DNA of 37,920 nt from a phage, in NCBI GenBank assembly GCA_033178465.1, contig GCA_033178465.1_4726.4; one strand, given 5' to 3'. The translations under genes and the position numbers were made by a program. The notes beneath the pieces are model-generated. The model worked only from the letters and a program-made list of their open reading frames with translations, ran no database searches and had not been told where the DNA came from. Shown here piece by piece: positions 4,780 through 21,619 of this stretch (position 1 is its first letter; each line of letters starts with the position of its first letter).

Positions 4780-6009
4780 CTACTTCGTTTTTGCCGCCAA
4801 CGGCTGCGATACTGTAATCTCTACCCGATTCTCATCAGTACGTTTAACGGTGATAAGGCTGCGTTCATCACCGAATGGTTCTGCTACCTTGGAAGCCTCT
4901 TTAAGATTTTCAAGAATCTCGCCAGAGGGTTCAAACACCGCGAAACCGGAGCTGGTGTCGGTTCTTATTAAACCTACGCGCGTACCATTTACGGTAATGA
5001 TGTCATCCGTCTTGAACCCGCAGCAGGAGGGTAGACAGAACTGGCCGTTAACGCAGTTAGCTAGGTATGCCTCACCGCCGAACATTTCTATTAACGTTAC
5101 CGGTTTAAATGTTTTCTCTGGGAAAGCGCTATTAAGAGTATCGTTTCCATTTACGAACCAGATCATTACTTTATCTTCGGAATACGTTAGCCGGTACGGT
5201 TGGGTTGCGGACGCTTGCGCTTTATGCTGATTAAATAACTTTGATTTCGTCGCAAGCACAGCACGACCTTCAGCATCAAAGTACAGAACTTCATATCTAA
5301 CACATCCGATAAACACGCGACGGTTATTAAGTTCCGGAATTCTGACTAATAACGCATCACCGTTTTCAGTAGGAACGATACCCCGTAGGATGATCGATTC
5401 ATTGTTCAATACCGAGTTGTTCACGGCGATGCTTCGCATTACCGCTGGCGTCACTATTTTATCTACTGCAGGTTCAAGTTGCTCCGATGTTACAACCATG
5501 GAGCTTTCTTCGTTTTCAACCGACTGATTAAAGATTATTTTATTAAGACAAACAATCGGTAGAATCCGGTCTACCCGCACCATCTCATCGAAAATCGCAG
5601 GAAAGCGACAAATATACGGAACAAAAACATCAATATCGTCGGTTGCTTTTTCAAGCATATTAGCATATTCAATTGCTTTAGAACGACCGTTGAGAAGAAT
5701 AACCGCATAAATAACACTATCTTCCAACCATGCGTTAGTTGTACGTCCGATAATACGATGGGTGTCTATTTCCGCGCGCTGGGGCTCCGGCGACCACTTT
5801 ATTGAGTTAACGCCGTCTACAACCACGTCAGCGCCATCATCACACAAACTTCGTATGAACCGACTGACGGTTTCCACATCGATCTGAATCCCTGTCTCCT
5901 CAATTTTCATCAGTGGAATAATGAACTCATTGTTACCACACTTCTTTGCTCCGCGAATAACAGGAGTACTCTTCTTGTTTTTAAGAGATCCCCAGATAAC
6001 TTTAGTCAT
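4780..6009 (-). CDS. Hypothetical protein (409 aa)
   Basis: Long ORF; ATG at 6009 with AAGGA 7 nt upstream; no motif recognised. Confidence 0.6.
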   Translation of the reverse strand: MTKVIWGSLKNKKSTPVIRGAKKCGNNEFIIPLMKIEETGIQIDVETVSRFIRSLCDDGADVVVDGVNSIKWSPEPQRAEIDTHRIIGRTTNAWLEDSVIYAVILLNGRSKAIEYANMLEKATDDIDVFVPYICRFPAIFDEMVRVDRILPIVCLNKIIFNQSVENEESSMVVTSEQLEPAVDKIVTPAVMRSIAVNNSVLNNESIILRGIVPTENGDALLVRIPELNNRRVFIGCVRYEVLYFDAEGRAVLATKSKLFNQHKAQASATQPYRLTYSEDKVMIWFVNGNDTLNSAFPEKTFKPVTLIEMFGGEAYLANCVNGQFCLPSCCGFKTDDIITVNGTRVGLIRTDTSSGFAVFEPSGEILENLKEASKVAEPFGDERSLITVKRTDENRVEITVSQPLAAKTK

Positions 6010-6042
6010 TTTCTGTTTCCTTCTTGGGTTTTGTACGAGTTT

Positions 6043-14189: not shown

Positions 14190-14939
14190 TTAGGGATGGC
14201 GCAACATAGTCACATCCCAGCATACCAGCTTGCTTTTCTCAAGCATCTTCTGCGCGATATCGACGCTAACTCTAGGATGCATGACAGGTAGCCAACGTTC
14301 GTTAAGTACCTTCGCTTCCAGGCGTTGCTTGCGCTTATTGTAACGTACCTCGCTAACCCATGCGTAACCAAAAGGATGGATAACCCGTGGGTAGTAACGT
14401 TTAAGCATCATCAGTCTTTGCTGATAAAGTTTATCGGAACCCTCGCTAACGAATAAGGCAACCCGTTCCAACCGCTTGGTGTAATACGTTCCGGTGGTAT
14501 GATTGATCCAACCAGGAAGTGCGCGTACGTCATTTTCGAGTGTTCCTGATACGTTGTGCACTTCACCGCTATACACCGTCCCAACAACCTGATTCGCTGC
14601 GCCCACCATCGACCGTGGCAAAGCATCCGCGGTAGGATACAACCATGCGTCCCCAAGCTGCTCTCCCGACGCAAGTACGCGTAGTCCGCTTGCGCTCATC
14701 CGTTGCGGATGCTGGCTCTTATGCGCACGCAACTGCACCACAGATAAGTCCGCTGGATAGGCGACGCAACAACCTCGCTGACGGAACAGTCCAACCTCAC
14801 CATCCATCCCTTCGATCATGCTTCCTTCCGAACCGTTCCACCAACGCTTAACCTTCACGCATTCCGCTTGCACAGCCTCAGGCAACGTTAGATAATCGTG
14901 CTCGATAAACACCACATCAAAAATTAATTCATTGTTCAT
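14190..14939 (-). CDS. Hypothetical protein (249 aa), first gene of the small-gene cassette
   Basis: ATG 14939 with AGAGGA upstream; immediately downstream of the AT-rich regulatory region. Confidence 0.55.
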   Translation of the reverse strand: MNNELIFDVVFIEHDYLTLPEAVQAECVKVKRWWNGSEGSMIEGMDGEVGLFRQRGCCVAYPADLSVVQLRAHKSQHPQRMSASGLRVLASGEQLGDAWLYPTADALPRSMVGAANQVVGTVYSGEVHNVSGTLENDVRALPGWINHTTGTYYTKRLERVALFVSEGSDKLYQQRLMMLKRYYPRVIHPFGYAWVSEVRYNKRKQRLEAKVLNERWLPVMHPRVSVDIAQKMLEKSKLVCWDVTMLRHP

Positions 14940-15190
14940 TTAAAAAGATCCTCTGTTTCACGTTAATTAAACAACGTATTGATTTCTATTCGACAACAAT
15001 ACGAACATTGTCCGTATGCATCATAGAGGTAATATAGCCGTGAAAGGATTTGTGTTACAGAAAGGGTTTTGTTGTGTTTTAAGAAGGGATGGATTTAGAA
15101 GAGGTGTTTCAAGGAAGGTAAACGAGGATGGTTATTTTAATTTAAGTAAGTAAGATGTTATCTGTATTTGTTAAAAGTGTATTGTCCATG

Positions 15191-15254
15191 TTATCTTGTT
15201 TATCTTAGGTTTAATCGTTTTATCTTTGTATGTTTAAGTTGTTTTATTTATCTT
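15191..15254. repeat. Iteron-like TTATCTT heptamer repeats (4 copies)
   Basis: TTATCTT at 15191, 15200, 15220 and 15248. Confidence 0.4.
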
Positions 15255-15738
15255 GTTTGTATATTTAAATTAAATCAATAAGCGTATCTTCAAAACAATG
15301 GATAACATGTGTTTACTACCTTAATGGTAACACATGTCATCTGTGCATTACACTCCGTTATCACTTCGTTACATGCTTATATGTTGGATAACTCAAAAAA
15401 CCATTTGTGATACTCTTCTTCACGTTGTTCATCAGAGTATCTCGTCTATACTCATTGCATTCGTATACGACATAACCGTTATACGCTAACGCTACGCTTA
15501 TAGCTTGATAACTCTAAGGATAAAAACATAAACTCGCTTCGCTCGTTTAGTTTTTCTTTTTCTTAGAGTTATCCTGTTGCTCGTCTCTAAAGGACTTCGC
15601 TCCTCCCCCGTCCCCCGAAGGGGCCGAGGTCGTGGAAATTTTACTTTCCAAATACATTTACAACATCTGTAAACTTTTACTCCAGGTACTTAATCTTATC
15701 ATTAGAAATTATAAAGAGAAGAATAAACACAAACATAA

Positions 15739-15763
15739 ACCTTCCCCCGACCCAACAGGGAAG
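15739..15763 (-). terminator. Intrinsic terminator candidate after gene 15783-16676
   Basis: Stem CCTTCCC / GGGAAGG with 11-nt loop; on the minus strand it is followed by a T-rich tract (complement of 15721-15738). Confidence 0.45.
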
Positions 15764-15782
15764 GAGGAAGGGAGAGATTAAA

Positions 15783-16676
15783 TTATTCGGAAACGTTGTA
15801 ACCGAATACGGCTTTACCGTAGGTGTGGGTACCGTCAGCTAACGACACCACTAGCACATGGTTGTATGTGGCGTTAACACCCTTGTCGGTAGACTCGGTG
15901 GTAGCACCGTTATAGACAAAGGTAGCTGTTTGCAGATTGGCTTTCAGCTCGGTGATGATCTCCTCACTTACACCCGTCTGCTCTTTGATCAGCGTAGTCA
16001 GGTTACCTGCCAGGGTATCATCGATCTTGGTTTCATTACTGGTAATCGCCTGTAAGCCTACAGTGTAGGTGCTGAAGTCTAACGGATAGGTTAACAGACG
16101 TGCTGACGTTTTGGTACCATCGCCTTCATCAACGTAGGTTAAGTTACCCAGGTTGGTAACCTTGATGATGTTAGCCAGATCCAGCGTGGTGTTATAAACT
16201 TTAACTTGAACAGAACCATACCACGCCAACGAATCTTCTTTGGCTTCCAGGGTGATCGTCTGGATACCATGATCGTCGAAGGTAACAGGATTAGCTAACG
16301 TATCGGCTTTGATGTCTTTCGCTTTATCCAGGAACTTCTCACCGGAAGGCGTGATCATACCGTAGCGTTGAGCTACAAGGTCAACCACATCACCGATGGT
16401 GGTGTTCGCTTCAACGTTAACACGTACAGCGATCTTCTGGAACCACTTAGCCAGATCCAGACGATGGTAGGTAACATCGCGTTCATTGAAGTAAGGGGTA
16501 CCTTCACCAGGGCTAAGCGTTAAAGTTGCTTCTGGAGCAGAAGCGCTTTTGGATTTAAGAACGTATTTAAGATCACTGTATTGGAAGCTGGCACCAGTGT
16601 CGGCGTTGAGCTGGTTGATCTCATCAACGATAAGTTGCCAAGGTGTTTTTAAAGTAAGTGAAACTTGAGTTGCCAT
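15783..16676 (-). CDS. Paralog-family protein (297 aa), probable virion structural protein
   Basis: ATG 16676 with GAGGT upstream; shares the motifs TYHRLDL, LVAQRYGM and SLAWYGSVQV with the tandem paralogs at 28896-32515 and with the 180-aa protein; moderately optimised codon usage. Confidence 0.65.
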   Translation of the reverse strand: MATQVSLTLKTPWQLIVDEINQLNADTGASFQYSDLKYVLKSKSASAPEATLTLSPGEGTPYFNERDVTYHRLDLAKWFQKIAVRVNVEANTTIGDVVDLVAQRYGMITPSGEKFLDKAKDIKADTLANPVTFDDHGIQTITLEAKEDSLAWYGSVQVKVYNTTLDLANIIKVTNLGNLTYVDEGDGTKTSARLLTYPLDFSTYTVGLQAITSNETKIDDTLAGNLTTLIKEQTGVSEEIITELKANLQTATFVYNGATTESTDKGVNATYNHVLVVSLADGTHTYGKAVFGYNVSE

Positions 16677-17655: not shown

Positions 17656-18291
17656 TTATTCAACACTGAAACCGTTCAAACAGATGGCTTCATAACGCTT
17701 ACGTTCACGACGTTTACGCGCCTGCCAGCCGTAAATGAACTTCTCGTCTTTCTCACGACGTTCCGCTAATTCGATGTAATAGGTGCTCTGCATGTCCAGC
17801 ATCGCATCGATGAGATAATCCTTACCGGTTGCGCCACGCTTAGCGATGTAGGCATCAAGAGCCGCCAGTGATTTGGGACCCATTGCACCATCGGCGTCAA
17901 TATCTTTCCAGTAAGTTTGACGGTTGTTCATGACGTTCAGGTAACGCTGAAGGTTCTTAACCGCAACCGTTTTACCTGCATTGATACCCAGGTCAAAGAG
18001 ACGGTCAGCTAAAAACACAGAACGTTTCATGACTTCGTCAAGTTTCATCTTATCCCAGAAGTGAGTCTTGTAGATAAAGAACGCCATTTCCGTGGTAAGG
18101 TTACGCATGTTACCGTTCCAGCCGAATTTCGTTTTCAGCGTGGTTTTATATTGGTTTGCTAAAGCTTGCGTAATGCCATGGTTCGTACATTTTCCGCTAT
18201 CATCTGGGTCATCAATATACCCGCCTTCAACATCGGTTTTGTCGCGGATGATAAATTCGCAGGTAAAATCTTTTTCAGTAATTTTAGCCAT
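17656..18291 (-). CDS. Endolysin, GH108-type muramidase-like with probable peptidoglycan-binding C-terminus
   Basis: N-terminal VEGGYIDDPDDSGKCTNHGIT matches the conserved EGGY..D..D.G..T..GIT motif of GH108 phage lysozymes; ATG 18291 with GAGGT upstream. Confidence 0.7.
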   Translation of the reverse strand: MAKITEKDFTCEFIIRDKTDVEGGYIDDPDDSGKCTNHGITQALANQYKTTLKTKFGWNGNMRNLTTEMAFFIYKTHFWDKMKLDEVMKRSVFLADRLFDLGINAGKTVAVKNLQRYLNVMNNRQTYWKDIDADGAMGPKSLAALDAYIAKRGATGKDYLIDAMLDMQSTYYIELAERREKDEKFIYGWQARKRRERKRYEAICLNGFSVE

Positions 18292-18302
18292 AGGAACCTC
18301 TA

Positions 18303-19412
18303 ATGGAGTTACGTGTTTGTAAATGTTGCGGAGTGGAGAAATCTATTATTGAGTTCAAACCTACCACATCCGGGTATTACACAAGAACGTGTAAAAAGTG
18401 TTTGGTGGCATACAAGAAACAATGGAGGAAACTCAACCCAGATAAAGAACGTGCACAAATCAAACGTTATATGGAGAAATGTAAAAACAGAACAGGAGAT
18501 GTTAAGCTGGCTTACATCAGATCGTTGCAACCGGCGCTGCGTGTTAAGGCAAAAATAGACTACCCTGAAAATATTCTTCTCTTACATTGCTTTAAATGCG
18601 ATGGAGTTAAGCCGGTGGATAGTTTTGCTTTGGCTGCTGCTAGACCAACCGGTAGGTCGAATATTTGTCGAGCATGTTTGCAACAACACACCCACAACAG
18701 GAAATATCTCCCTACGGAACAGTTTTATCGGTGCCAACGTTGTGGTAAAACGAAACCAGCCGATCAATTTAGAGATCGATCCTCTGTGATTCGTGGAAAA
18801 CATTCTTACTGTTTAGATTGTGAAAAAGACGTTAAAGAAGAATTGTTGCGACGCAGAACTCCTGAATATCAGATTGAGAAACTAAAAGAGAAAAGTGTAT
18901 TGCTTGCGTGTAAACATGGACTGGATCCGGATAAGCTCTGGAAGAAATGCTCGAGTTGCGGCGAGATAAAACGACCATCCGATTTTTCTCGCAATTGCCG
19001 TGCAATAGATGGATACCAGTCTATTTGTAAACACTGTCGCTCGGCCAGTAGCGAAACATTCGCTGGATTCAGGAGACGTATCCATGCCGCCGTCGGTCAT
19101 GCGACGACCGTTGGTAAACTAACACGTCCTGATACATGCGAAGAGTGTGGCTGTAACGCATACACTGAGGCACACCATGACAACTATCTTAAACCTTTCG
19201 ATGTTCGCTGGTTATGCCGTAGCTGCCATCGTAAAGTCCATTTGAATTACGTATTTGTTGAAATACGTTATTTCAAGGAAAAAGGTTTAACGGTTGAAGA
19301 AGTTGTGCGTCGAGCTTACCCTGACGCTTTTGATTGGGTGGTGGTTAACCCGGAAGATAAGAATGCGCTAGTTATCGTCCGAGTACCACCACAGTTACGA
19401 GAGTTAGATTAA
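18303..19412 (+). CDS. HNH endonuclease with four N-terminal zinc-ribbon-like repeats (homing-endonuclease-like)
   Basis: C-terminal CEECG...HHDNY...WLCRSCHRKVH HNH motif; four repeats of C-x2-C-G-x2-K-x4-F...C-x2-C; visibly AT-richer than neighbours; opposite orientation to both flanking genes; start only 11 bp from the endolysin start. Confidence 0.7.
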   Translation: MELRVCKCCGVEKSIIEFKPTTSGYYTRTCKKCLVAYKKQWRKLNPDKERAQIKRYMEKCKNRTGDVKLAYIRSLQPALRVKAKIDYPENILLLHCFKCDGVKPVDSFALAAARPTGRSNICRACLQQHTHNRKYLPTEQFYRCQRCGKTKPADQFRDRSSVIRGKHSYCLDCEKDVKEELLRRRTPEYQIEKLKEKSVLLACKHGLDPDKLWKKCSSCGEIKRPSDFSRNCRAIDGYQSICKHCRSASSETFAGFRRRIHAAVGHATTVGKLTRPDTCEECGCNAYTEAHHDNYLKPFDVRWLCRSCHRKVHLNYVFVEIRYFKEKGLTVEEVVRRAYPDAFDWVVVNPEDKNALVIVRVPPQLRELD

Positions 19413-19420
19413 TGTCGAAT

Positions 19421-19444
19421 AAGAGGGAGTGGCAGCTCCCTCTT
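19421..19444 (+). terminator. Terminator candidate after the HNH gene
   Basis: Stem AAGAGGGAG / CTCCCTCTT (9 bp) with 6-nt loop, followed by a partly T-rich run. Confidence 0.4.
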
Positions 19445-19488
19445 TATGCCGTGTTGTTAAATACTGGATTTAGAGGAACAGGAAGGGT

Positions 19489-19563
19489 CTAGAACGCGAT
19501 AAACGATTTAATCCAGGCAAACCCCAGGTTAAACTTTTCGAAGCGTTACAACGCGTTCTAGAG
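19489..19563. repeat. 11-bp perfect inverted repeat pair TCTAGAACGCG ... CGCGTTCTAGA separated by 52 bp
   Basis: Copies at 19489-19499 and 19553-19563, between the HNH gene and the stop of the tail-fibre gene at 19571. Confidence 0.4.
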
Positions 19564-19570
19564 CGCAATA

Positions 19571-21619
19571 TCAAATACCTTTGGTTCCCTTCACGTGATG
19601 TGCGATTTCTTCAACCATTGCACGCAGGGCACGAAGCTGTTGGTCGTGTTCGTACCAACCGCCTAACAGAACCCCGCTATACACCATGGTGTCAAGACTT
19701 AACAGTCCTTTATCTGATACGTTGATCATTTCAGGGAACTGTTCTTGAACACGCTGTGCGATAACACCGATCTTCTCGACATCAGGATCGTAGTTGTGAC
19801 GGAAACGGGCAAGCCCGCTGCGCGCCATTTCGCGTAAACGTTCACTGAGAGATTCCGGATGATCTTTCAGATAACGAATGTCGTGTTTACTACGCTCATC
19901 TGAACGGATGTAAGCGTTAGGAACATCGATGTTGCTGTTGAAGTACAGCGCACTACCACCGCCTGCAGAGTTCCCCCAATAGAAGCGTGTGATCTCACCG
20001 CCGCCATTTTCCGTGATGATAACATGTTTACCTAAACGCGTACCACCGTTACCATCAACGAAGACCAGTTTGTTTCCGCTGTAAGAACCCCAGAACAAGC
20101 GTGTATCGATGATGTGTGTTGCAGCGAGACGGGCGTTACGTGGTGTAGAATACACGGTGTTAACATCTTGCTGCGCATGTGCATCGGAAGCGATACCATA
20201 GTTCTGTACGTTACCCAATCCCACCTGCGCTTTTGTAACAGCATGCGGGTTATCCCGACGGTTAGCGTGAGCGTTAACCAGATCACCCGCTAATTTCTGA
20301 ATTGCCCAGTTGGTAGACTGTGGTGTCATGTAACGGTTCGTTGCAGAACCACCTTGCGCTTCAGCTTGGTTAGCGGTTGGGTAGTTCTCAACACTTCCTA
20401 ACCCTACTTGTGCCTTAGACACTTGGTGTGGGTTATTCTTATCGGCGATGTGTGCATTAAGCGGAACTAACGCAAAGGTCTCAATGGACGCTTTGGTTGT
20501 GTTCGGTGCCATTAATCGGTTAGCTGCAACACCAGCACGCGCTTCTTCTTCAGAAGCCATTGGGTAGTCTTGCACATTCCCTAACCCAACCTGTGCTTTG
20601 GTCACCCTGTGTGGGTTGTTGTAATCGGCTTTATGCGCATTAAGCGGAATCAGTGCGAACTGTTCAATCGCTGCAACAGTACGTAGCGGCGTCATGAAAC
20701 GGTTGTTCGCTGTACCCGCTTTTGCTTCAGAGTCCGACGCTGTCGGGAAGTTATCAACGTTCCCAAGGTTAACCTGTGCTTTGGTGACGCTATGCGGGTT
20801 ATCCCGGCGGTTAGCATGCGCGTCGACCAGATCGCCTGCCAGTTTAGCAATCGCCCAGCCAACCGTCTGTGCTGTCATGTAACGGTCAGGTGCAGTACCG
20901 GCTTCTGCCTCCGCCTTGTTTGCGGTAGGGTAGTTCTGTACGTTACCTAGTCCGACTTGGGCTTTTGTTACTTCGTGCGGGTTATCGGTACGGTTAGCAT
21001 GTGCGTAATGCAGATCGGTCAGATCTTTATCCGCCGCTTGCATGTCTTTGCGTAGCTGATCGATTGCCGCCCAGAGACGGTTATCGGACGCAGCATCACC
21101 GATAAGTATTGCAGCTTTTAACGAATAGATCGCTAAGCAAAGATGCTCGGTACCGTAGATGGCGCTAACGTGGTGGATGTGTGGTTCAGGCGGATAGAGT
21201 TCTGGTTTGTTCTTGATGTCGTCCCAGTTGATCGGACGATCGTCAAGTTTGAGTTCTTCGATAGCCTGATATAACGCGTCAATAAGACTTACGTAAACAC
21301 CACCGATGATACGATAGTCGTTAACTAACGTACCCTCGATATCATCGTTGATGATGGCGATGGCTGCACAGATTTCTTTACCAGCGTAAAGCGTAGCGTC
21401 CTGATACAAGAAGATGGGCTTATAATCCACGCCTCGTACCAGTGTCTTACCGGTAAGCTTTTCAGTGATGACCAGACTTTCGGTGAAGAACGGTCCGCCA
21501 TCAAGGGCGTAACATTTATTCTCGGTTCGTGGAACGGTATGCTCTTCACCAACGATGTGGTTGCTGGCGAGTGTACCGGTCCAGTCCTCGGGGTACTTCA
21601 GGGTAATTGGTGTCGACAT
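19571..21619 (-). CDS. Tail fibre protein with about five tandem 61-aa repeats and C-terminal intramolecular-chaperone (peptidase S74-like) domain
   Basis: Five repeats with core NPHxVTKAQVGLGNVxNY...YMTP; C-terminal SDERSKHDIRYLKD...GLLSLDTMVY matches the self-cleaving chaperone domain known from endosialidases and L-shaped tail fibres; N-terminus similar to gene 25306-27459. Confidence 0.8.
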   Translation of the reverse strand: MSTPITLKYPEDWTGTLASNHIVGEEHTVPRTENKCYALDGGPFFTESLVITEKLTGKTLVRGVDYKPIFLYQDATLYAGKEICAAIAIINDDIEGTLVNDYRIIGGVYVSLIDALYQAIEELKLDDRPINWDDIKNKPELYPPEPHIHHVSAIYGTEHLCLAIYSLKAAILIGDAASDNRLWAAIDQLRKDMQAADKDLTDLHYAHANRTDNPHEVTKAQVGLGNVQNYPTANKAEAEAGTAPDRYMTAQTVGWAIAKLAGDLVDAHANRRDNPHSVTKAQVNLGNVDNFPTASDSEAKAGTANNRFMTPLRTVAAIEQFALIPLNAHKADYNNPHRVTKAQVGLGNVQDYPMASEEEARAGVAANRLMAPNTTKASIETFALVPLNAHIADKNNPHQVSKAQVGLGSVENYPTANQAEAQGGSATNRYMTPQSTNWAIQKLAGDLVNAHANRRDNPHAVTKAQVGLGNVQNYGIASDAHAQQDVNTVYSTPRNARLAATHIIDTRLFWGSYSGNKLVFVDGNGGTRLGKHVIITENGGGEITRFYWGNSAGGGSALYFNSNIDVPNAYIRSDERSKHDIRYLKDHPESLSERLREMARSGLARFRHNYDPDVEKIGVIAQRVQEQFPEMINVSDKGLLSLDTMVYSGVLLGGWYEHDQQLRALRAMVEEIAHHVKGTKGI
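20190..21010 (-). repeat. Tandem in-frame repeats, about 183 bp period, 5 copies (tail-fibre repeat)
   Basis: Recurrent plus-strand block resembling GTTCTG-ACGTT-CC-A-CC-AC-TG-GCTTTGGT-AC at about 20198, 20383, 20567, 20750 and 20933. Confidence 0.75.

What the first reader, a model, noticed from the sequence alone, without database searches (positions are those of the whole stretch)
18303..19412. HNH endonuclease gene with four zinc-ribbon repeats inserted head-to-head beside the endolysin gene
This is the only plus-strand gene between two minus-strand structural genes. It is AT-richer than its neighbours, and its ATG lies only 11 bp from the endolysin ATG on the other strand, leaving no room for separate promoters. 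Four repeats of C-x2-C-G-x2-K-x4-F...C-x2-C precede a C-terminal HNH motif. It looks like a recently acquired freestanding homing endonuclease with an unusual tandem zinc-ribbon DNA-binding array.
Basis: partly seen in the sequence, partly recalled or inferred. Interest (0 to 1): 0.5.

Follow-up and report, generated by a model that had tools for sequence, protein, structure and literature searches.

The report
Freestanding HNH homing endonuclease gene
A 1.15-kb selfish DNA-cutting gene sits between the endolysin and tail-fibre genes of this Goslar-like E. coli jumbo phage; three of nine related genomes carry it at exactly this spot, so it is a good but fairly ordinary example of a mobile phage nuclease gene.

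Summary
ORF 18303..19412 (+, 369 aa) starts 11 nt from the endolysin ATG. It has four in-register C-x2-C...K-x4-F...C-x2-C zinc ribbons, then a C-x2-C...HH...C-x2-C-H-x3-H module.

The window is a relative of Escherichia phage Goslar (93-97% nt), a nucleus-forming jumbo phage. Goslar and five other Goslar-like genomes lack the gene. They have a conserved 21-nt empty site where the window and two other genomes carry the same ~1150-bp cassette (ORF plus hairpin).

- No target-site duplication, terminal inverted repeats or intron.
- Only about 8 flanking sites, all within 20 bp, co-segregate with the cassette.
- Between the window and L003, synonymous divergence is 0.13 in the cassette and 0.35-0.47 in the flanks.

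"Recently acquired" is not shown: alleles differ by up to 10% nt, and a 33%-identical homologue sits at the same junction in a distant jumbo phage. The four-ribbon array is rare, not unique. Verdict: new member of a known kind, modest interest.

The parts
18303..19412 (+). Homing endonuclease ORF, 369 aa (stop included)
   Evidence: ORF list and sequence. PHROG phrog_2340 'endonuclease' E=3e-35. Intact in three alleles with dN/dS 0.11-0.15.
18318..18401 (+). Zinc ribbon 1 (aa 6-33, C6/C9/C30/C33)
   Evidence: Regex and alignment of the four repeats.
18588..18677 (+). Zinc ribbon 2 (aa 96-125)
18732..18821 (+). Zinc ribbon 3 (aa 144-173)
18948..19037 (+). Zinc ribbon 4 (aa 216-245); best Pfam Stc1 stretch is aa 192-246
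19059..19250 (+). HNH (beta-beta-alpha-metal) module, aa 253-316. Leading helix, then C279-x2-C282, H291-H292 at the end of strand 1, C305-x2-C308, H309-x3-H313
19251..19409 (+). C-terminal beta-alpha-beta-beta-alpha domain (aa 317-369), function unknown, shared by the multi-ribbon subfamily
19421..19444 (+). 10-bp-stem hairpin 9 nt after the stop codon, inside the cassette; probable terminator
   Evidence: Fold -21 kcal/mol, z -3.55. Conserved in all three HEG+ genomes and absent from HEG- genomes. Not called by the simple terminator scan because the T tract is short.
18292..18302 (.). 11-nt spacer between the two divergent start codons. AGGAACCTCTA in HEG+ genomes, TAGAACTCCTC in HEG- genomes. 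Carries AGGA (+ strand, for the HEG) and GAGG (- strand, for the endolysin)
   Evidence: Five of the 11 positions are fixed differences between HEG+ and HEG- genomes. The Shine-Dalgarno reading is inference.
18303..19452 (.). Inserted cassette (~1150 bp), refined boundaries. BLAST-defined non-homologous stretch is 18298-19466, replacing 16 bp of Goslar
17656..18291 (-). Endolysin (GH108 + PG_binding_3), left flank. Synonymous wobble at 18283 co-segregates with the cassette
19467..19570 (.). Conserved intergenic region also present in HEG- genomes, with a perfect 11-bp inverted repeat at 19488-19498 / 19552-19562. The cassette now separates it from the endolysin
19571..21619 (-). Tail-fibre / peripheral-baseplate protein (Goslar gp25 homologue), right flank
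   Evidence: gp25 was detected in Goslar virions (bioRxiv 10.64898/2026.04.21.720040).

Best explanation
The ORF is a freestanding homing endonuclease gene (HEG) of the HNH (beta-beta-alpha-metal) superfamily. It travels as a ~1.15-kb cassette (ORF plus 3' hairpin) in the spacer between the endolysin start codon and the region downstream of the tail-fibre gene.

Proposed mechanism. The fold and the genetics are shown; the biochemistry is inferred.
1. The four N-terminal Cys4 zinc ribbons, and possibly the C-terminal alpha/beta domain, bind a long asymmetric DNA site.
2. The HNH module uses H292 as general base and H309/H313 for the catalytic metal, with a structural zinc on C279/C282/C305/C308. 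It nicks or cuts the empty allele at or near ...AATCTTAGCCAT|TAGAACTCCTC|GTTGGAATAAC...
3. During co-infection, recombinational repair from the HEG+ genome copies the cassette with very little flanking sequence.
4. The HEG+ allele is immune because the site is split by the cassette and changed at 6 linked positions on the left.

In a nucleus-forming phage the enzyme would have to enter the phage nucleus to reach its target.
For: Presence/absence:
- Window, L003 and L008/L020 carry the cassette at identical junctions.
- Goslar, L009 and L021-L024 have a conserved 21-nt empty site.

Not a transposon or intron:
- No target-site duplication or terminal inverted repeats.
- No Rfam family or tRNA in the window.

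Moves as a discrete unit:
- Of 234 + 167 variable columns in 1 kb on each side, only 18283, 18292/93/98/99, 18302, 19453 and 19455 (plus 19628) separate HEG+ from HEG- genomes.
- The window's flanks are closest to HEG- Goslar, but its HEG is closest to L003.
- For window vs L003, dS is 0.13 in the HEG, 0.47 in the endolysin and 0.35 in the fibre gene.

Functional:
- dN/dS is 0.11-0.15. Every zinc ligand and H291/H292/H309/H313 is kept in all three alleles.

HNH fold:
- AF2 model with pLDDT 90 shows strand-strand-helix with H292 at the end of strand 1.
- The motif maps onto Gme HNH D53-H54 / C73-x2-C76-N77 (PMC3765158).

Family behaves like HEGs:
- Relatives sit between dCMP deaminase and DNA ligase, after an RNA polymerase beta' gene next to chimallin, and beside fibre genes.
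- Three relatives are fused to GIY-YIG, one of them also with NUMOD3 and a weak, sub-threshold I-TevI DNA-binding-domain hit.

Foreign to the backbone:
- The whole Goslar genome has no relative of the family.
- GC3 is the lowest of 33 ORFs in the window.
Against: - No nuclease activity, target site or homing has been measured.
- No curated HNH model matches this protein. Only 2 of 128 relatives touch Pfam HNH, at E~1e-3, and PDB sequence searches find no HNH.
- The canonical central Asn is Asp300 here and varies across the family.
- Goslar-like genomes are mosaic everywhere, so the discordance could come from ordinary recombination.
- No promoter has been identified for the gene.
Confidence: 0.75

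Rival explanations
1. The gene is ancestral to the Goslar group and its relatives. It is inherited vertically and was lost by deletion in Goslar and the other HEG- genomes. The nuclease serves the phage, for example in competition with co-infecting relatives or in DNA processing, and is not an actively homing element.
For: - A 33%-identical, same-length homologue lies at the same head-to-head junction (spacer ...ACCTCNAATG) beside a 54%-identical endolysin and upstream of a 35%-identical fibre gene in a distant jumbo phage. HEG divergence there is similar to that of its neighbours.
- HEG alleles differ by up to 10% nt and are under purifying selection.
- For window vs L020, HEG dS (0.35) is similar to endolysin dS (0.31).
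Against: - All seven empty sites, including the divergent L009, L022, L024 and L025, share one identical junction. That requires a single clean deletion followed by recombination anyway.
- HEG+ genomes are not a clade in the flanks.
- Linkage to the flanks decays within 20 bp.
- For window vs L003, HEG dS is about 3-fold lower than in the flanks.
- A benefit through interference competition is compatible with homing and does not exclude it (PMC11620839).
Confidence: 0.12
2. The protein is mainly a sequence-specific zinc-ribbon DNA- or RNA-binding regulator. Its HNH-like module has lost catalysis. It may regulate the divergent endolysin or the fibre operon.
For: - No curated HNH model matches.
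- The central Asn is not conserved.
- Small relatives pair the module with RHH, Arc or HTH DNA-binding domains.
- In three relatives a separate GIY-YIG nuclease is present, which could mean the HNH-like part only binds DNA.
- The gene overlaps the endolysin's translation-initiation region.
Against: - H292, H309 and the four Cys are invariant in 128 relatives, and position 313 is His or Asp. That is the pattern of an active beta-beta-alpha-metal site.
- The presence/absence pattern and the lack of any relative in Goslar fit a dispensable mobile gene better than a regulator of essential late genes.
Confidence: 0.08
3. It is a packaging-associated HNH protein of the kind that stimulates terminase (HK97 gp74 / zinc-ribbon HNH nickases next to cos sites).
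For: The closest solved folds include the phage GVE2 HNH, which its authors describe as a component of the DNA-packaging machinery (abstract of PMC5304195). Zinc-ribbon HNH nickases are common beside terminase genes (PMC3592412).
Against: - The gene is ~170 kb from the terminase large subunit in the Goslar map (gp222 at ~190 kb).
- It is absent from six of nine otherwise collinear genomes, one of which (Goslar) is an isolated, viable phage, so it cannot be needed for packaging.
Confidence: 0.02

Closest known systems
Freestanding HNH and GIY-YIG homing endonuclease genes of T-even phages (Mob and Seg families; 'intronless homing', Belle et al. 2002, cited in PMC12908238)
   Same: - Intergenic, promoter-poor cassette between conserved genes.
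- Presence/absence polymorphism among close relatives.
- No target-site duplication or terminal repeats.
- Short linked flanks, and immunity of the occupied allele through site disruption.
   Different: - Different domain architecture: four N-terminal Cys4 zinc ribbons, then a C-terminal HNH, then an extra alpha/beta domain. From my own knowledge, not checked here, characterised Mob/I-HmuI-type enzymes use HNH with NUMOD/HTH modules.
- The host is a nucleus-forming jumbo phage.
- Cleavage and marker exclusion have not been shown.
PhiPA3 gp210, intron-encoded nicking HNH homing endonuclease of a chimallivirus (PMC11620839), and Goslar's own HNH_3 endonucleases gp069, gp186 and gp206
   Same: HNH-superfamily homing nucleases in nucleus-forming jumbo phages. 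They must act inside the phage nucleus and could serve in competition between co-infecting relatives.
   Different: - The Goslar enzymes are annotated HNH_3 or phiKZ ORF179-like (gp069 also NUMOD1). PhiPA3 gp210 lies in a group I intron within an RNA polymerase gene; Goslar gp186 and gp206 lie next to annotated group I introns in RNA polymerase genes, and gp069 follows a DNA polymerase gene.
- This one is freestanding, belongs to a different and Pfam-uncovered HNH subfamily, and has no relative in Goslar.
Zinc-ribbon HNH nicking endonucleases of phages and prophages (Xu & Gupta 2013, PMC3592412); Gme HNH (4h9d), GVE2 HNH (5h0o), T5 SciA (9qgx)
   Same: - Minimal HNH core with a [CxxC]2 structural zinc.
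- His at the end of strand 1, and His/Asn right after the second CxxC.
- Extra zinc ribbons for DNA recognition.
- These are the best structural matches.
   Different: - Per PMC3592412 they have one zinc-ribbon domain with one or two zinc sites and 3-7 bp specificity, and typically sit by the terminase/cos region. Here there are four ribbons and an unrelated locus.
- Sequence similarity is too low for any profile match.
Pfam Stc1 domain (PF12898)
   Same: The ribbon array scores above the family's gathering threshold. It shares the paired C-x2-C ... C-x2-C pattern.
   Different: Only the second half of the Stc1 profile is matched (positions 30-83 of 84). From my own knowledge, the name comes from a fission-yeast chromatin protein. 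The resemblance is at the level of a small zinc module and implies nothing about function.
I-TevIII (HNH plus zinc fingers; Robbins et al. 2007, cited in PMC12908238)
   Same: By my recollection, an HNH homing endonuclease that uses zinc-finger modules for DNA binding. The paper's title states that dimerisation produces the double-strand break.
   Different: Intron-encoded. By my recollection the domain order is the opposite. No sequence relationship was tested here.

Membership tests
HNH / beta-beta-alpha-metal (His-Me finger) endonuclease superfamily | Two-stranded hairpin followed by a helix (beta-beta-alpha) that holds the metal site | tested here: met
HNH / beta-beta-alpha-metal (His-Me finger) endonuclease superfamily | Invariant His (general base) at the end of strand 1 | tested here: met
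   H292 is invariant in 128 aligned relatives and lies at the end of strand 1. It corresponds to Gme H54.
HNH / beta-beta-alpha-metal (His-Me finger) endonuclease superfamily | [CxxC]2 structural zinc site bracketing the hairpin, with His/Asn directly after the second CxxC | tested here: met
   C305, C308 and H309 are invariant and C279 and C282 nearly invariant (>=90%) in the 128-sequence alignments; all were invariant among the 17 closer sequences. Position 313 is His or Asp.
HNH / beta-beta-alpha-metal (His-Me finger) endonuclease superfamily | Conserved central Asn (the 'N' of HNH) | tested here: not met
   The equivalent position, 5 residues before C305, is D300 here. In relatives it is D, S, R, K, N or E.
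HNH / beta-beta-alpha-metal (His-Me finger) endonuclease superfamily | Match to a curated HNH sequence model | tested here: not met
   No Pfam or NCBIfam HNH hit for this protein at E<=0.1-1. Two of 128 relatives hit PF01844 at E~1e-3. No HNH chain appears in PDB sequence searches. Only PHROG families annotated 'endonuclease' or 'HNH endonuclease' match.
HNH / beta-beta-alpha-metal (His-Me finger) endonuclease superfamily | Metal-dependent DNA nicking or cleavage | not testable with these tools
   Needs purified protein.
Freestanding homing endonuclease gene (intronless homing) | Present or absent at one identical site among otherwise collinear close relatives | tested here: met
   3 HEG+ and 6 HEG- Goslar-like genomes, all with identical junctions.
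Freestanding homing endonuclease gene (intronless homing) | Not inside an intron or intein, and no transposon hallmarks | tested here: met
   Intergenic position. No Rfam family. No target-site duplication or terminal inverted repeats.
Freestanding homing endonuclease gene (intronless homing) | History of the cassette differs from that of its flanks; short co-converted flanks | tested here: met
   Identity matrix and dS. Fixed HEG-linked sites lie only within 20 bp. Caveat: these genomes are mosaic in general.
Freestanding homing endonuclease gene (intronless homing) | Endonuclease cleaves the HEG-less allele near the insertion site and biases inheritance | not testable with these tools
   Needs a cleavage assay and phage crosses.
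Pfam Stc1 domain (PF12898) | Score at or above the family's gathering threshold | tested here: met
   32.5 bits against a cut-off of 24.8, two stretches, best at aa 192-246. Only profile positions 30-83 are covered.
Terminase-associated zinc-ribbon HNH nickases | Located next to the terminase/cos region and needed for packaging | tested here: not met
   Terminase gp222 lies at ~190 kb in Goslar. The gene is absent from six collinear genomes, including the isolated phage Goslar.
Intron-encoded HNH endonucleases (PhiPA3 gp210; Goslar gp186/gp206 type) | Embedded in a self-splicing group I intron within a conserved gene | tested here: not met
   No group I intron in the window, and the cassette lies between genes.

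The most novel reading that the evidence does not exclude
The multi-ribbon + HNH + C-terminal-domain proteins may form a distinct, uncharacterised homing endonuclease lineage. It would have a modular zinc-ribbon recognition array (1-6 units, sometimes with a second GIY-YIG nuclease) and recur in nucleus-forming jumbo phages: the window, L007, and L038 next to chimallin and an RNA polymerase gene. Members would be adapted to enter the phage nucleus. In Goslar-like phages the cassette would act as a weapon in competition between co-infecting relatives. It would also rewire endolysin expression, because it separates the endolysin from its upstream region by 1.15 kb of antisense sequence and a hairpin.
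Probability: 0.15. Interest if true: 0.55.

Novelty: new member of a known kind. Interest (0 to 1): 0.3.

Why it matters
Goslar is the E. coli model for nucleus-forming jumbo phages. From the PhiPA3/PhiKZ work summarised in the review PMC12908238 and in PMC11620839, homing endonucleases can act as weapons between co-infecting chimalliviruses, and nuclear import specificity decides who is hit.

A natural polymorphism in Goslar-like phages gives a ready-made pair for that question. The 21-nt empty site is sharply defined, and the ~1150-bp occupied allele carries only about 8 linked flanking changes. This would let one test three things in a tractable host:
- homing;
- marker exclusion around the endolysin and fibre genes;
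- nuclear import of a freestanding endonuclease.

The nuclease belongs to a large HNH-like subfamily: 18,059 cluster representatives at E<=1e-3 to the full-length protein, some of which may match only the zinc ribbons. No Pfam model covers its HNH module. Its tandem zinc ribbons might be a modular recognition code. Otherwise this is an ordinary kind of selfish phage gene.

Tried and rejected
- Sequence route to HNH. Pfam, NCBIfam and three PDB sequence/profile searches gave no HNH match. The best PDB sequence hits were ribosomal zinc ribbons (S27ae, L28) and are not significant.
- Co-conversion seen as a local dip in identity to Goslar. The dip next to the junction (90-92% against ~96%) is within the genome-wide mosaic noise. 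The fixed-site test replaced it.
- Transposon or IS reading. No target-site duplication, terminal repeats or DNA-level repeats.
- Intron reading. No Rfam hit.
- Paralogues. None in the window, in the distant endolysin loci L011-L019 and L027-L035, or anywhere in Goslar.
- Sigma-70 promoter scan. It found fewer sites than in shuffled sequence. From general knowledge of phiKZ-like phages, not checked here, chimalliviruses transcribe with their own RNA polymerases, so the scan may not apply.
- Megablast of L007 against annotated phages found nothing. A protein search places L007 among jumbo phages at <=45% identity.
Full report
**What is at the coordinates.**
The ORF 18303..19412 (+) encodes 369 aa and opens right after an in-frame stop. 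The gene to its left, 17656..18291 (-), is a GH108 + PG_binding_3 endolysin. The gene to its right, 19571..21619 (-), is a tail-fibre-like virion protein with a Peptidase_S74 chaperone end. The two divergent ATGs are separated by exactly 11 nt (18292-18302).

Four zinc ribbons lie at aa 6-33, 96-125, 144-173 and 216-245. They align in register with C, C, K, F, C, C invariant. Together they pass Pfam's threshold for Stc1. They are repeats at the protein level only; there is no DNA-level repeat.

Composition differs modestly from the surroundings. GC is 43.1% against 46.4% for the window, the 12th percentile of equal-sized windows. GC3 is 0.374, the lowest of 33 ORFs, about 2 sd below the mean.

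**Where the window comes from, and the empty site.**
The window is collinear with the first 37 kb of Escherichia phage vB_EcoM_Goslar at 93-97% identity. Goslar is a nucleus-forming jumbo phage. There are three breaks in the alignment, one of them at 18298-19466, where 1169 bp replace 16 bp of Goslar.

I gathered nine Goslar-like genomes from the public collections.
- Carrying the gene at the same junctions: the window, L003 (a 244-kb ENA contig; protein 96% identical) and L008/L020 (IMG/VR; 89% identical).
- Lacking it: Goslar, L009, L021, L022, L023 and L024.

The empty site is CAT|TAGAACTCCTC|GTTGGAATAAC|GATTTAGAGG. It is almost invariant even in genomes only 86-90% identical in the flanks, and it also occurs in L025, which has a different upstream gene. 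The occupied site is CAT|AGGAACCTCTA|[ATG...ORF...hairpin...GCCGT]|GTTGTTAAATAAC|GATTTAGAGG.

The cassette is therefore about 18303-19452: the ORF plus a 10-bp-stem hairpin at 19421-19444 (-21 kcal/mol, z -3.55). There is no target-site duplication, no terminal inverted repeat, and no intron or other Rfam family.

**Is it mobile?**
Three results say the cassette has a history of its own.
- In 1 kb on each side there are 234 and 167 variable alignment columns among the nine genomes. The only columns that separate carriers from non-carriers are 18283, 18292, 18293, 18298, 18299, 18302, 19453 and 19455, plus one isolated site at 19628. Linkage is lost within 20 bp.
- The window's endolysin, intergenic region and fibre gene are closest to HEG-less Goslar (94.8%, 99.0%, 96.7%). 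Its cassette is closest to L003 (96.2%), whose flanks are only 90-93% identical to the window's.
- For window vs L003, synonymous divergence is 0.13 in the cassette, 0.47 in the endolysin and 0.35 in the fibre gene.

The caveat is that these genomes are mosaic everywhere. Ordinary recombination contributes, and homing itself has not been demonstrated.

The gene is not decaying. All three alleles are full length, dN/dS is 0.11-0.15, and every zinc ligand and the four key histidines are kept.

**'Recently acquired' is not supported.**
Alleles differ by up to 10% nt. For window vs L020 the cassette is as diverged as the flanks.

P0002 is the only other full-length relative with E<1e-30 among 1.84 billion cluster representatives (33-35% identity, 365 aa). 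It lies in L007, head-to-head with an endolysin 54% identical to the window's. It is 13 nt from that endolysin's ATG, with a similar spacer (ACCTCAAATG against ACCTCTAATG). It is upstream of a fibre gene 35% identical to the window's. L007's fibre protein matches only jumbo phages, at <=45% identity.

The association of this nuclease lineage with this junction is therefore old. Either the element was inherited for a long time with losses, or it homes across diverged phages that share the target.

**Is it an HNH nuclease?**
Sequence databases do not say so. There is no Pfam or NCBIfam HNH hit, and PDB sequence and profile searches return no HNH chain. Only PHROG families labelled 'endonuclease', 'HNH endonuclease' or 'endonuclease VII' match.

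The module at aa ~253-316 belongs to a very large family of mostly 60-190-aa proteins without Pfam coverage. A profile search found 2380 proteins. An exhaustive HMMER search found 18,059 representatives at E<=1e-3. H292, Y295, W303, C305, C308 and H309 are invariant and C279/C282 nearly so (>=90%) in 128 sequences, and position 313 is His or Asp.

The arrangement maps onto Gme D53-H54 / N68 / C73-x2-C76-N77 as H291-H292 / D300 / C305-x2-C308-H309 (PMC3765158). The classical central Asn is not conserved.

I file the protein in the HNH superfamily on fold and catalytic-site pattern. I note that two defining features fail: the curated sequence model and the central Asn.

**Rest of the protein and the family.**
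Residues 317-369 form a confidently predicted beta-alpha-beta-beta-alpha domain. It has only weak ferredoxin/RRM-like structural matches and no known function. One possibility, which is inference only, is dimerisation.

The usual architecture in the family is zero or one ribbon plus the HNH module. Proteins with three to six ribbons are a small minority of the best 150 hits, so four is rare but not unique.

Relatives occupy typical homing-endonuclease niches:
- between dCMP deaminase and NAD ligase (L039);
- directly after an RNA polymerase beta' gene, two genes from chimallin, in another nucleus-forming phage (L038);
- beside a DUF4376 gene, in tandem with a second copy (L040/L041).

P0137, P0140 and P0151 fuse the whole ribbon-HNH-C-terminal unit to a GIY-YIG catalytic domain. 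P0151 also has a NUMOD3 motif and a weak, sub-threshold hit to the I-TevI DNA-binding domain.

Goslar has no relative of this family anywhere in its 237,307 bp. Its annotated endonucleases gp069, gp186 and gp206 are of the HNH_3 / phiKZ ORF179-like type, and gp186 and gp206 lie next to annotated group I introns in RNA polymerase genes.

**How it most likely works.**
Shown here:
- a discrete, intact cassette under selection, with present/absent alleles and its own history;
- an HNH-fold module with an intact active-site pattern;
- four Cys4 ribbons.

Inferred:
- the ribbons bind a long site;
- the enzyme nicks or cuts the empty allele around the endolysin start and spacer;
- repair from the occupied genome copies the cassette;
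- the occupied allele is protected because the site is split and changed at six linked positions on the left.

The changes in the 11-nt spacer turn TAGAAC into AGGAAC, a possible ribosome-binding site for the nuclease. They keep a GAGG on the other strand for the endolysin. This reading is also inference.

**Open point.**
The cassette brings no recognisable promoter. Its transcript must start inside the endolysin's 5' coding region. The endolysin is now cut off from the conserved intergenic region 19467-19570 by 1.15 kb of antisense sequence and a hairpin. That region carries a perfect 11-bp inverted repeat. How both genes are transcribed in HEG+ phages is unknown. The sigma-70 scan found fewer sites than in shuffled sequence, and from general knowledge these phages transcribe with their own RNA polymerases.

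**Verdict.**
This is a real feature and it was correctly recognised. It is a freestanding HNH homing endonuclease gene of an uncharacterised, Pfam-uncovered subfamily, polymorphic among Goslar-like phages. That makes it a new member of a known kind. Interest is modest. It rises somewhat because Goslar is an experimental model and homing endonucleases are known to mediate competition between nucleus-forming phages (PMC11620839, PMC12908238).

Noticed in passing
window 14940-15782: About 840 nt with no ORF longer than 51 aa, AT-rich (GC 0.32 at 15001-15500), and unannotated in Goslar (record 14972-15825). It is 100% identical to Goslar over 15400-15699, while neighbouring 100-nt blocks are 81-88%. 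No tRNA or Rfam hit. It contains TTATCT-rich direct repeats (15183-15254) and a 20-nt inverted repeat (15507-15526 / 15554-15573). It could be a regulatory region, an origin or an unknown RNA.
   Followed up: partly
window 5484-6016 and 14396-14851: Two further stretches with no BLAST-level similarity to Goslar, inside the homologues of gp009 and gp021. The second aligns to L009 at ~90%. These look like allele replacements, showing that the genomes are mosaic.
   Followed up: partly
window 19467-19570: Intergenic region conserved in all Goslar-like genomes, with a perfect 11-bp inverted repeat TCTAGAACGCG (19488-19498 / 19552-19562) that is unique in the window. In HEG+ genomes the cassette separates it from the endolysin. 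Its role (fibre-gene terminator or endolysin promoter region) is unknown.
   Followed up: partly
L007 1496-1975 (-): In the distant jumbo-phage contig, the gene directly downstream of the HEG homologue is a 159-aa protein matching phrog_2297 'DNA endonuclease'. A gp38-like adhesin follows. The endolysin-fibre junction may be a hot spot for nuclease genes.
   Followed up: partly
proteins P0137, P0140, P0151 (L043 for P0137): Relatives in which the ribbon-HNH-C-terminal unit is fused to a GIY-YIG catalytic domain. P0151 also has NUMOD3 and a weak, sub-threshold I-TevI DNA-binding-domain hit. These are putative two-nuclease homing enzymes.
   Followed up: partly
L038 5001-6086: P0138 is a 361-aa relative (28% identity, full length). 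It lies directly after an RNA polymerase beta' (Rpb1_2) gene and two genes from a chimallin gene in another nucleus-forming phage. Intron-encoded HNH enzymes occupy the same kind of locus in PhiPA3 and Goslar.
   Followed up: no
L040 and L041, 18-497 and 633-1553: Two tandem copies of the family, one cut off by the contig end, next to a DUF4376 gene.
   Followed up: no
Goslar record 81279-82469, 168235-169645, 211817-213710 (L045, L047, L048): Goslar's annotated endonucleases are of a different type (HNH_3 / NUMOD1 / phiKZ ORF179-like). gp069 follows a DNA polymerase gene. gp186 and gp206 sit beside annotated group I introns in RNA polymerase genes.
   Followed up: no
L025 96-1052: In this divergent Goslar-like contig the gene upstream of the endolysin is an unknown 318-aa ORF on the same strand, not the fibre gene. 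The empty-site sequence next to the endolysin ATG is nevertheless conserved.
   Followed up: partly
window 20190-21016: The fibre gene contains several diverged tandem copies of a ~60-aa unit (motif NPH..TKAQVGLGNV.N). They appear as off-diagonal BLAST hits and as repeated alignments to the L007 fibre.
   Followed up: no
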